From assembly GCF_003334305.1 (NCBI RefSeq), contig NZ_QOWS01000004.1: a DNA stretch of 64,000 nt; one strand, 5' to 3'. The position numbers are program-made. Of this stretch, positions 34,184-37,100 are shown in pieces; the first letter of the stretch is position 1; each line of letters starts with the position of its first letter. This DNA comes from Escherichia coli (GTDB taxonomy: Bacteria > Pseudomonadota > Gammaproteobacteria > Enterobacterales > Enterobacteriaceae).

Positions 34184-37100
34184 TCAGTAAAAGCGAATGG
34201 AGGGAGATTACACGAGATAAAGAACGCGAGCGACAGTAAATTAGGTGCGAAAAAAAACCTGCGCATCCGCGCAGGTTGGTGCAAGAGACAGGGTACGAAG
34301 AGCGTACCGAATAATCTCACCAATCAATACCTCTGGGATCTTGATTGTGGTCTGCACGACGACTCTTCGCCAGCGAGAAAACGCAAAGGAATGAAGGGAA
34401 ATGCAACGAGGTGTGTAAATTGTCGGTTACTGTTACAGATTGATGACCGGCAAAAAAAAACCTGCGCATCTGCGCAGGCTGGTGTAATTCATGTGCTCAA
34501 CCCGAAGTTGACTTCACCTATCAATACCTCTGGGATCACCACTTTAGCAACCTGAAGCCAAACGCCACCAGCGGTCAATCGCAACAGCGTTTCGCAAAGT
34601 GTAACCAAAGGTTTGCAATCTCTTTTTTTGTCTTACTTATTTGCGTTTGGCTCACATTCCCACGATGAAAACACGCCACCCCTTGAACCAACGGGCGTTT
34701 TCCGTAACACTGAAAGAATGTAAGCGTTTACCCACTAAGGTATTTTCATGGCGACCATAAAGGATGTAGCCCGACTGGCAGGCGTTTCAGTCGCCACCGT
34801 TTCCCGCGTCATTAATAATTCACCTAAAGCCAGCGAAGCTTCCCGGCTGGCTGTGCATAGTGCAATGGAGTCTCTTAGCTATCACCCGAACGCCAACGCC
34901 CGTGCGCTGGCGCAGCAGACCACTGAAACGGTCGGTCTGATCGTTGGTGATGTTTCCGATCCGTTTTTCGGTGCAATGGTGAAAGCGGTCGAACAGGTGG
35001 CTTATCACACCGGTAATTTCTTATTGATTGGCAACGGTTACCACAACGAACAAAAAGAGCGTCAGGCTATTGAGCAACTGATCCGCCATCGCTGTGCTGC
35101 GTTGGTCGTCCATGCCAAAATGATCCCGGATGCCGATTTAGCCTCATTAATGAAACAAATGCCCGGTATGGTGCTGATCAACCGTATCCTGCCTGGCTTT
35201 GAAAACCGTTGTATTGCTCTTGACGATCGTTACGGTGCCTGGCTGGCAACGCGTCATTTAATTCAGCAAGGTCATACCCGCATTGGTTATCTGTGCTCTA
35301 ACCACTCTATTTCTGACGCCGAAGATCGTCTGCAAGGGTATTACGATGCCCTTGCTGAAAGTGGTATTGCGGCCAATGACCGGCTGGTGACATTTGGCGA
35401 ACCAGACGAAAGCGGCGGCGAACAGGCAATGACCGAGCTTTTGGGACGAGGAAGAAATTTCACTGCGGTAGCCTGTTATAACGATTCAATGGCGGCGGGT
35501 GCGATGGGCGTTCTCAATGATAATGGTATTGATGTACCGGGTGAGATTTCGTTAATTGGCTTTGATGATGTGCTGGTGTCACGCTATGTGCGCCCGCGCC
35601 TGACCACCGTGCGTTACCCAATCGTGACGATGGCGACCCAGGCTGCCGAACTGGCTTTGGCGCTGGCGGATAATCGCCCTCTCCCGGAAATTACTAATGT
35701 CTTTAGTCCGACGCTGGTACGTCGCCATTCAGTGTCAACTCCGTCGCTGGAGGCAAGTCATCATGCAACCAGCGACTAACCGCAGTTAAAGCAATTCCAG
35801 CGCCAGTAATTCTTCGATGGTCTGGCGACGGCGAATCAACCGCGCCTGACCATTATCAAACAGAACTTCTGGTAACAGCGGACGGCTGTTGTAGTTGGAT
35901 GACATTGATGCGCCATATGCCCCTGTATCATGCAGTACCAGATAATCACCCGCCTTCACTTCCGGCAAGGCGCGGGTTTCAACATTTCCCCCTTCCTGCT
36001 GGGTAAAGACATCGCCCGATTCACATAATGGCCCGGCGACGACGGTTTCCACCGTTGGCGCGTGTTCCAGAGAACGACCATCAGCTGCCAGGGCACTGAT
36101 ATGGTGGTAACTACCGTACATTGCCGGGCGCATCAGATCGTTGAACCCAGCATCAACCAGCACAAAGTGGCGGCTACCCATTTGTTTGACGCTCCGCACC
36201 TGAGTAATTAATACGCCAGACTGCGCTACCAGGAAGCGACCCGGTTCAATTTCCAGTTTCACAGGGTGGCCCAAATGGCGGGCGATTTGCTCACGCGCGG
36301 CATTCCACAGACCATAATAATGTTCGGTATCAACCGCCTCTTCACCCTGTTGATAAGGAACAGAAAGCCCACCGCCCGCAGAAATAGCCTGTAAATCCTG
36401 ACCGAATTCGATGACCTGACGCACCATAGCACCACACACCTGTTCCAGATGGGCATAATCAACGCCAGAACCAATGTGCATGTGAATGCCGACCAGCTGC
36501 AGATGATGACGTTGTATCACGTCCAGTGCGGCGGGCAGATCGGTGTACCAGATACCGTGCTTGCTGTTTTCGCCACCGGTATTGGTTTTTTGGCTATGTC
36601 CGTGACCAAACCCCGGATTAACGCGCAGCCATACCCGATGCCCTGGCGAAACCTGGCCCAGTTGGTCGAGCATATCAACAGAACCCGCATTCACCGGAAT
36701 TTGCAATTCACTGACGCGTTCAAGCGTCGCCTGATCGATAACATCTGCCGTAAAAACAATATCATCGGGGTGCGTTTGCGGATTGTAACCCGCCGCCAAC
36801 GCACGCTCTATTTCGCCTAACGAGACGGAATCCACTTTCACGCCCTGCTCACGCATTAAGCGCAAAATATGAATATTGGAACAGGCTTTCTGTGCAAAGC
36901 GCACCACATCAAACTGTTTCAGCGCTGCAATCTGCCGACGAATAATTTGCGCATCGTAGACCCACACCGGGCAGCCAAATTCAGCGGGCAAACGCAGCAG
37001 ATTTTCGGCGGTGAGATCGGTATCGGTGCTGAACAGTGAATGTGGCATAACAAACTCCAGATAAGTGCTTTTTTATGATTACGCCACATCATAAAAAGAA

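What the first reader, a model, noticed from the sequence alone, without database searches (positions are those of the whole stretch)
34250..34534. Tandem OmrA/OmrB sRNAs between aas and galR
Two paralogous Hfq-dependent sRNAs share the 5' seed CCCAGAGGTATTGAT and a 3' terminator but differ in the middle. This is the expected conserved arrangement.
Basis: established knowledge. Interest (0 to 1): 0.25.

Follow-up and report, generated by a model that had tools for sequence, protein, structure and literature searches.

The report
Known OmrA and OmrB small RNAs

Summary
Confirmed and already known. The window is an E. coli chromosome. The aas-galR intergenic region (34163-34747) is identical to K-12 MG1655 except for one extra base in a homopolymer run. 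Rfam RF00079 (OmrA-B) hits both copies on the minus strand. The first is 34250-34337 at 96.6 bits, which is omrA (b4444, 88 nt). The second is 34453-34534 at 86.1 bits, which is omrB (b4445, 82 nt). The gathering score is 40.

Both start with CCCAGAGGTATTGAT, and 20 of their first 21 nt match. Their last 35 nt, which include a terminator hairpin and U-tail, match at 32 positions. Their centres differ (32 vs 26 nt).

A scan of other Enterobacterales returned 120 loci:
- Wherever the start of aas was visible (82 of 82 loci), the sRNA gene lay upstream of aas on the same strand.
- Wherever the start of galR was visible (76 of 76), galR was divergent.
- The terminator stem shows compensatory changes.

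The omrB promoter carries a strong OmpR-type box at -81..-62. The omrA promoter has only weak matches, so its OmpR dependence rests on published experiments. The -10 boxes fit the published sigma-S (omrA, -12C) versus sigma-70 (omrB, -12T) split. Nothing here is new.

The parts
34250..34337 (-). omrA (OmrA sRNA, 88 nt). The transcription start is the C at 34337. The 5' seed CCCAGAGGUAUUGAU is at 34323-34337.
   Evidence: RF00079 at 96.6 bits, model positions 1-87 of 87. Identical to K-12 b4444. Folds with z = -2.68.
34453..34534 (-). omrB (OmrB sRNA, 82 nt). The transcription start is the C at 34534. The T-run after the terminator is 9 T here against 8 in K-12, so the 3' end may lie at 34452.
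   Evidence: RF00079 at 86.1 bits, model positions 1-87 of 87. Identical to K-12 b4445 apart from the extra base in the homopolymer. Folds with z = -2.91.
34256..34277 (-). omrA intrinsic terminator hairpin (9 pairs, loop GGAU), followed by the U-tail at 34250-34255.
   Evidence: Terminator scan. Among 140 distinct homologues the arms change together: CCTGCGC/GCGCAGG, CCTACGC/GCGTAGG and CCCACGC/GCGTGGG.
34459..34480 (-). omrB intrinsic terminator hairpin (9 pairs, loop AGAU), followed by the U-tail.
   Evidence: One pair shows C-G to U-A compensation in 5 of 40 sequences.
34338..34451 (-). omrA promoter, which fills the whole omrB-omrA spacer. The -10 box CACAAT is at 34344-34349 (-12C), with -13C at 34350. 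Conserved blocks lie at -77..-62 (34399-34414, ACACCTCGTTGCATTT), -49..-40 (34377-34386, TTGCGTTTTC) and -101..-94 (34431-34438).
   Evidence: Read from the sequence. Conservation measured over 44 sequences. Published work shows OmpR-P activates a -114..+50 template and that truncation at -60 abolishes this (PMC5175337). Published work also identifies -12C as the sigma-S determinant (review PMC12692685).
34535..34648 (-). omrB promoter. The -10 box TAAAGT is at 34541-34546 (-12T). Conserved blocks lie at -80..-59 (34593-34614) and -54..-42 (34576-34588, GCTGTTGCGATTG).
   Evidence: Conservation measured over 42 sequences. No sigma-70 consensus promoter is found in the region, as expected for activator-dependent promoters.
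34596..34615 (-). OmpR-type 20-bp box in the omrB promoter, CAAACCTTTGGTTACACTTT at -81..-62. It overlaps the published candidate RstA site.
   Evidence: Matrix score 10.67, rank 24 of 127,962 positions in the window. The published mutations T-75C and A-68G fall on a T at 34609 and an A at 34602, and they cut OmpR activation from 81-fold to 3.3-fold (PMC13425233).
32003..34162 (-). aas, the downstream flanking gene on the same strand as the sRNAs.
   Evidence: ORF list, RefSeq annotation.
34748..35779 (+). galR, the divergent upstream flanking gene.
   Evidence: ORF list, RefSeq annotation.

Best explanation
The region holds two independent minus-strand genes, omrB (next to galR) and omrA (next to aas). 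They encode the paralogous base-pairing small RNAs OmrB (82 nt) and OmrA (88 nt).

Each gene has its own weak promoter with a poor -35 element, and each depends on an activator. [quoted passage not shown]

Transcription starts at the first C of CCCAGAGGUAUUGAU and stops at an intrinsic terminator. The single-stranded 5' end, helped by Hfq, pairs near the ribosome-binding site of many mRNAs and represses them. Published targets include cirA, ompT, fecA, fepA, csgD, flhDC, btuB, flgM and dgcM. They also include ompR-envZ, which closes a negative feedback loop on the sRNAs' own activator.

Shown here: identity, boundaries, structure, synteny, the promoter elements, and complementarity of the seed to the ompR and cirA leaders. 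Inferred from published K-12 experiments, which transfer because the sequences are identical: OmpR, sigma-S and Hfq dependence, and target repression.
For: - Rfam RF00079 scores 96.6 and 86.1 bits against a gathering score of 40, over the full model.
- The intergenic region is identical to K-12 across 585 columns apart from one homopolymer base, and K-12 annotates omrA (b4444) and omrB (b4445) at the matching positions.
- The seed occurs only twice in the window.
- Both copies have terminators and stable folds with a free 5' end.
- A seed-anchored scan of one genome per bacterial species returned 120 loci, all from Enterobacterales where the organism is named. aas lay downstream on the same strand in 82 of 82 loci where its start was visible, and galR was divergent in 76 of 76.
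- The terminator arms co-vary. The GGTG...CACC outer helix is invariant in all 140 distinct sequences. The central hairpin is kept with 92 different stem sequences.
- The -10 boxes CACAAT (-12C, -13C) and TAAAGT (-12T) are read directly from the sequence. They match the published determinants of sigma-S versus sigma-70 use (PMC12692685).
- The omrB promoter has an OmpR-type box that ranks 24th of 127,962 positions. It sits on the published T-75 and A-68 positions (PMC13425233).
- OmpR-P activates both promoters in vitro (PMC5175337), and ChIP detects OmpR at both genes (PMC3945435).
- The seed pairs with ACCUUUGGG next to the ompR ribosome-binding site at -16.9 kcal/mol (OmrA) and -19.0 kcal/mol (OmrB). 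Only 11 of 500 and 0 of 500 shuffled seeds did as well. It pairs with cirA at about -9 to -40, which covers the published -10..-19 site (PMC2588501).
Against: Nothing contradicts this. Four points are weaker than the rest.

- The omrA promoter has no convincing OmpR box by matrix scan. Its best scores are 0.91 and -0.66, within the top 2-3% of window positions.
- The crude duplex test for cirA does not stand out from shuffled seeds (83-95 of 500 do as well).
- Expression, Hfq binding and regulation cannot be tested with sequence tools.
- RefSeq automatic annotation does not list these genes in most genomes. That reflects annotation practice and says nothing about whether the genes are there.
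Confidence: 0.98

Rival explanations
1. The two Rfam hits are pseudo-copies or chance terminator-like repeats in an intergenic region, and no functional sRNAs are made.
For: Intrinsic terminators are common. Leu_leader and SgrS models give sub-threshold matches to the same stretches, driven by the hairpin and T-run.
Against: Both copies match the whole model at more than twice the gathering score. They are identical to experimentally characterised K-12 genes. The 15-nt seed is exact in every homologue extracted except one, which differs at a single base, and it always sits a fixed distance from a conserved -10 box. The rival families score 15-28 bits against gathering scores of 37-50.
Confidence: 0.01
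2. The region encodes small proteins rather than RNAs. Candidate ORFs are 34087-34323 (minus, 78 aa), 34317-34469 (minus, 50 aa), 34245-34394 (plus, 49 aa) and 34391-34555 (plus, 54 aa).
For: The mechanical ORF list reports these frames.
Against: The conservation pattern does not look like coding sequence. The 5' 21 nt and the terminator are nearly invariant. The centre varies in both sequence and length (72-110 nt overall) while keeping a hairpin through paired changes. The ORFs also run across terminators and promoters. They were not tested directly for protein homology.
Confidence: 0.01

Closest known systems
OmrA/OmrB of E. coli K-12 (Rfam RF00079; genes b4444 and b4445; older names RygA/SraE and RygB, recalled from my own knowledge)
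   Same: The RNA sequences, promoters, spacing, strand and flanking genes are all identical.
   Different: There is one extra T in the run after the omrB terminator (9 against 8). The same allele appears in many other E. coli genomes that match the window at 100%.
Single-copy and chimeric Omr loci in other Enterobacterales (described in PMC13425233)
   Same: They share the seed, the terminator and the position upstream of aas.
   Different: Those loci carry one gene. In 15 of 17 cases it has an omrB-type upstream box (AAACCTTTxxTTACA) in front of either an OmrA-like or an OmrB-like transcript. The window has the full two-gene arrangement.
Other duplicated 'sibling' sRNAs, such as PrrF1/PrrF2 in Pseudomonas and the Qrr sRNAs in Vibrio (named from my own knowledge)
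   Same: These are paralogous base-pairing sRNAs that share a seed and overlapping targets but have separate promoters.
   Different: They are unrelated in sequence, regulators and targets. No comparison was run here.
MicF, another OmpR-activated sRNA next to ompC
   Same: It is activated by EnvZ-OmpR through tandem 20-bp OmpR sites. The C1-C3 sites lie between ompC and micF.
   Different: It belongs to a different RNA family and has a different main target. The Omr promoters respond to total OmpR level rather than only to OmpR-P (PMC5175337, PMC12692685).

Membership tests
OmrA-B sRNA family (Rfam RF00079) | Covariance-model score at or above the curated gathering score (40 bits) over the full model | tested here: met
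   96.6 bits (34250-34337) and 86.1 bits (34453-34534), both covering model positions 1-87 of 87.
OmrA-B sRNA family (Rfam RF00079) | Conserved 5' end CCCAGAGGUAUUGAU(N)GGUGA beginning at the transcription start | tested here: met
   Exact in both copies. A conserved -10 box sits at -12..-7 in front of each. The published promoter numbering (T-75, A-68) falls on the correct bases when counted from 34534 (PMC13425233).
OmrA-B sRNA family (Rfam RF00079) | Intrinsic terminator with a U-tail at the 3' end, supported by covariation | tested here: met
   Hairpins of 9 pairs followed by at least 8 U. The arms change together across 140 distinct homologues, and one pair shows C-G to U-A compensation.
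OmrA-B sRNA family (Rfam RF00079) | [quoted passage not shown] | tested here: met
   for the window. Across genera, 82 of 82 loci with the aas start visible and 76 of 76 with the galR start visible keep this layout.
OmrA-B sRNA family (Rfam RF00079) | Transcription activated by EnvZ-OmpR, with OmpR sites upstream | tested here: inconclusive
   The omrB promoter has a strong OmpR-type box at -81..-62 (score 10.67, rank 24 of 127,962). The omrA promoter has only weak matches (0.91 and -0.66). OmpR has a poor consensus (PMC3945435). Direct activation of both promoters was shown in vitro for the identical K-12 sequence (PMC5175337).
OmrA-B sRNA family (Rfam RF00079) | Hfq-dependent base-pairing of the 5' end with target mRNAs near the ribosome-binding site | not testable with these tools
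   Hfq dependence comes from the literature (PMC2588501). Complementarity was checked here. The seed pairs with the ompR leader at -16.9 and -19.0 kcal/mol, better than nearly all shuffled seeds. The cirA pairing covers the published site but is not statistically distinctive.
OmrA versus OmrB assignment | OmrA is the aas-proximal 88-nt copy with a -12C sigma-S-type -10 box. OmrB is the galR-proximal 82-nt copy with a -12T -10 box. | tested here: met
   The lengths and positions match the K-12 annotation. CACAAT with -13C precedes 34337, and TAAAGT precedes 34534. The determinants are as described in PMC12692685.

The most novel reading that the evidence does not exclude
Both paralogous promoters keep the same two short modules across Enterobacterales: TTGCG(A/T)TT at about -50..-42 and CGCTGG at about -39..-33. 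The PWM built from the six ompF/ompC OmpR sites scores this stretch poorly. It could be the binding site of a regulator, not yet identified, that is common to both genes. That would be the missing partner for the conserved 'box B1' that a 2026 study could not assign (PMC13425233). It would add a signal input to a well-known circuit. It would not be a new kind of element.
Probability: 0.2. Interest if true: 0.3.

Novelty: already known. Interest (0 to 1): 0.04.

Why it matters
As a discovery it does not matter. OmrA and OmrB have been studied for more than fifteen years, and the copies here are identical to the K-12 reference genes.

It is useful as a positive control for the scan, because a reader working from raw sequence placed both genes to the exact base. 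It is also a reminder that most RefSeq E. coli annotations leave these genes unlabelled.

Tried and rejected
- A sigma-70 consensus scan of 34100-34800 found no promoter. This fits activator-dependent promoters with poor -35 elements, so the -10 boxes were read by hand relative to the transcription starts.
- I built an OmpR position weight matrix from the six ompF/ompC sites. I recalled the sites from memory and then confirmed all six in K-12 as contiguous 20-bp sites. The matrix gave a clear site for omrB but nothing convincing for omrA. An OmpR box at omrA therefore cannot be called from sequence.
- RNAalifold on plain MAFFT alignments recovered the outer helix and the terminator. It missed the OmrB central hairpin, because length-variable hairpins misalign. 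An alignment-free fold of each centre showed a hairpin in all 140 sequences, with 92 distinct stems.
- A permissive Rfam scan looked for rival families and found only sub-threshold Leu_leader, SgrS and TeloSII matches. These were rejected.
- The overlapping small ORFs were considered and rejected on their conservation pattern.
- The duplex test for cirA was not statistically distinctive.

Full report
**Observation**

The plus strand of 34250-34534 contains two copies of ATCAATACCTCTGGG, each preceded by a GC-rich hairpin and an A-run. On the minus strand these read as two units. Each starts with CCCAGAGGTATTGAT and ends in a hairpin followed by a T-run.

The 15-mer occurs only at 34323-34337 and 34520-34534 in the whole 64 kb window. 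About 0.07 matches are expected by chance even with two mismatches allowed.

The repeat finder reports two direct-repeat blocks with start-to-start spacings of 197 and 203 nt. A 24-nt block at 96% identity covers the 5' ends. A 38-nt block at 89% identity covers the terminators.

In the pairwise alignment the first 21 nt match at 20 positions and the last 35 nt at 32. The centres (32 and 26 nt) do not align. The terminator scan finds a 9-pair hairpin with a T-tail at each 3' end.

**Identity**

A scan of the whole window against Rfam 15 gives RF00079 (OmrA-B) at 34250-34337 (96.6 bits) and at 34453-34534 (86.1 bits). Both hits are on the minus strand and cover the full model, against a gathering score of 40. 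A permissive scan of 34000-34900 finds no other family near its threshold. Leu_leader scores 23-28 bits against 50, and SgrS scores 15 against 37.

The region matches 5424 of 5426 complete E. coli genomes, with aas and galR annotated on either side. In K-12 MG1655 the corresponding positions are annotated omrA (b4444, 88 nt) and omrB (b4445, 82 nt), between aas and galR.

The window's intergenic region (34163-34747) is identical to K-12 over 585 columns apart from one extra A in the run at 34444-34452. This lengthens the T-run after the omrB terminator from 8 to 9. The aas-proximal copy is therefore OmrA and the galR-proximal copy is OmrB. All published K-12 experiments apply directly.

**Structure**

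Both RNAs fold better than shuffled controls (z = -2.7 and -2.9). Each has a largely unpaired 5' end, a central hairpin enclosed by a GGUG...CACC helix, and the terminator.

**Related sequences**

I scanned one genome per bacterial species for CCCAGAGGTATTGATNGGTG.

- Synteny: wherever the start of aas is visible (82 loci), it lies downstream on the same strand, within 400 nt in 77 of them. Wherever the start of galR is visible (76 loci), it is divergent and upstream.
- Copy number: 43 loci have a tandem pair and 8 have two copies about 2 kb apart. Another 17 have a single copy with both flanking genes close by. The remaining 52 single-hit loci have incomplete or interrupted context, so their copy number cannot be judged.
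- Terminator: among 140 distinct RNA sequences the arms change together. The combinations are CCTGCGC/GCGCAGG, CCTACGC/GCGTAGG, CCCACGC/GCGTGGG and CCTGCGT/ACGCAGG.
- Other helices: the GGTG/CACC helix never varies. The central hairpin is kept with 92 different stem sequences.

This is the signature of a structured RNA, not of a protein-coding frame. It disposes of the small ORFs listed mechanically.

**Promoters**

Counting from the two transcription starts, the -10 boxes are CACAAT for omrA (-12C, with -13C) and TAAAGT for omrB (-12T). These are the published determinants of sigma-S dependence for omrA and sigma-70 use for omrB (review PMC12692685). No consensus sigma-70 promoter is found in the region, which fits activator dependence.

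Phylogenetic footprinting over 42-44 loci shows conserved blocks in each promoter.

| Promoter | Conserved blocks |
|---|---|
| omrB | -80..-59 and -54..-42 |
| omrA | -77..-62, -49..-40 and, more weakly, -101..-94 |

The two promoters share TTGCG(A/T)TT and CGCTGG modules with a one-base offset. The ancestral duplication therefore included the core promoter.

**OmpR boxes**

I built a matrix from the six classical ompF/ompC OmpR sites. All six were confirmed to lie as contiguous 20-bp sites upstream of those genes in K-12.

In the omrB promoter, CAAACCTTTGGTTACACTTT at -81..-62 scores 10.67. That ranks 24th of 127,962 positions in the window and is above the genuine C2 site's own score of 6.29. 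It contains T-75 and A-68, and mutating those two bases lowers OmpR activation from 81-fold to 3.3-fold (PMC13425233).

The omrA promoter gives only weak matches: 0.91 at -109..-90, -0.66 at -80..-61 and -1.41 at -60..-41. The suggested OmpR-box check is therefore positive for one promoter and inconclusive for the other.

This agrees with reports that OmpR lacks a strong consensus (PMC3945435). The case for omrA rests on experiments. OmpR-P activates both -114..+50 templates in vitro, and an omrA promoter truncated at -60 is not activated (PMC5175337). ChIP also detects OmpR at both genes (PMC3945435).

**Mechanism**

Published work shows that the 5' end of both RNAs pairs with target mRNAs near the start of translation. 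This depends on Hfq and RNase E. The targets include ompR itself, which gives negative feedback on the sRNAs' own activator (PMC2588501, PMC5175337).

As a check, I tested the first 21 nt of each RNA against the -60..+30 regions of K-12 ompR and cirA.

- ompR: the predicted duplex pairs nucleotides 1-9 with ACCUUUGGG just upstream of the ribosome-binding site. The energies are -16.9 and -19.0 kcal/mol. Only 11 of 500 and 0 of 500 shuffled seeds did as well.
- cirA: the duplex covers the published -10..-19 site, but 83-95 of 500 shuffled seeds did as well, so it is not distinctive in this crude test.

Recent work extends the regulon to carbon and lipid metabolism (bioRxiv 10.64898/2026.06.26.734639). 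It also identifies RstA as a multicopy activator specific to omrB (PMC13425233).

**Verdict**

The feature is already known, and I found nothing anomalous in this copy.

The only open thread is the conserved -54..-33 promoter segment shared by both genes. The factor that binds it is not established, and this gap is already flagged in the literature.

Noticed in passing
window 5754-5830 (+): The window has a single initiator tRNA-Met gene where K-12 has three tandem copies (metZ, metW, metV). Over window 1-49049 it is otherwise colinear with K-12 at about 99% identity.
   Followed up: partly
window about 4393-4412: About 143 bp that K-12 carries between tcdA and mltA (L126 4885-5026) is absent from this strain. 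What the segment is was not examined.
   Followed up: no
window 1225-1430 (+): A full-length GcvB sRNA (RF00022, 199 bits) sits next to gcvA, as in K-12.
   Followed up: partly
window 34444-34452: The T-run after the omrB terminator has 9 T where K-12 has 8. Many other E. coli genomes match the window at 100% across this stretch, so they carry the same allele. It could make OmrB one nucleotide longer.
   Followed up: partly
L125 (E. coli strain 300709, NZ_CP025903.1), breakpoint equivalent to window about 34403: An IS3-family element is inserted between omrA and omrB, at about -66 of the omrA promoter. This should cut omrA off from its upstream activating region. In all, 34 of 5424 genomes cover less than 80% of 34200-34600.
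   Followed up: partly
RefSeq E. coli records, e.g. L002: Automatic RefSeq annotation lists no feature for omrA or omrB ('none' under the match). The curated K-12 record does annotate them.
   Followed up: yes
L011 2747-4879 (Pantoea stewartii); also L034, L056, L062, L070, L088, L091, L102: In Erwiniaceae the two Omr copies lie about 2.0-2.1 kb apart. In L011 a 579-aa ORF at 2936-4675 lies between them; by eye it resembles penicillin-binding protein 3 (FtsI). An 843-aa ORF lies between galR and the first copy; by eye it resembles a molybdopterin oxidoreductase. Neither ORF was searched against any family library.
   Followed up: partly
L014, L028, L030, L040, L061, L067, L077, L078, L104, L116, L119 and other single-copy loci: Of 17 true single-copy loci, 15 have the omrB-type upstream box (AAACCTTTxxTTACA), whether the transcript centre is OmrA-like or OmrB-like. 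This reproduces a published claim (PMC13425233). L030 (Siccibacter colletis) instead looks omrA-type throughout, with CACCTGGTTGCA upstream and a CCACAAT -10 box. L014 and L067 combine the omrB-type box with an omrA-type -10 box.
   Followed up: partly
window 34377-34386 and 34576-34588; also 34370-34375 and 34568-34573: Both promoters share the conserved modules TTGCG(A/T)TT and CGCTGG, offset by one base. The OmpR matrix scores this stretch poorly, and the factor that binds it is not established.
   Followed up: partly
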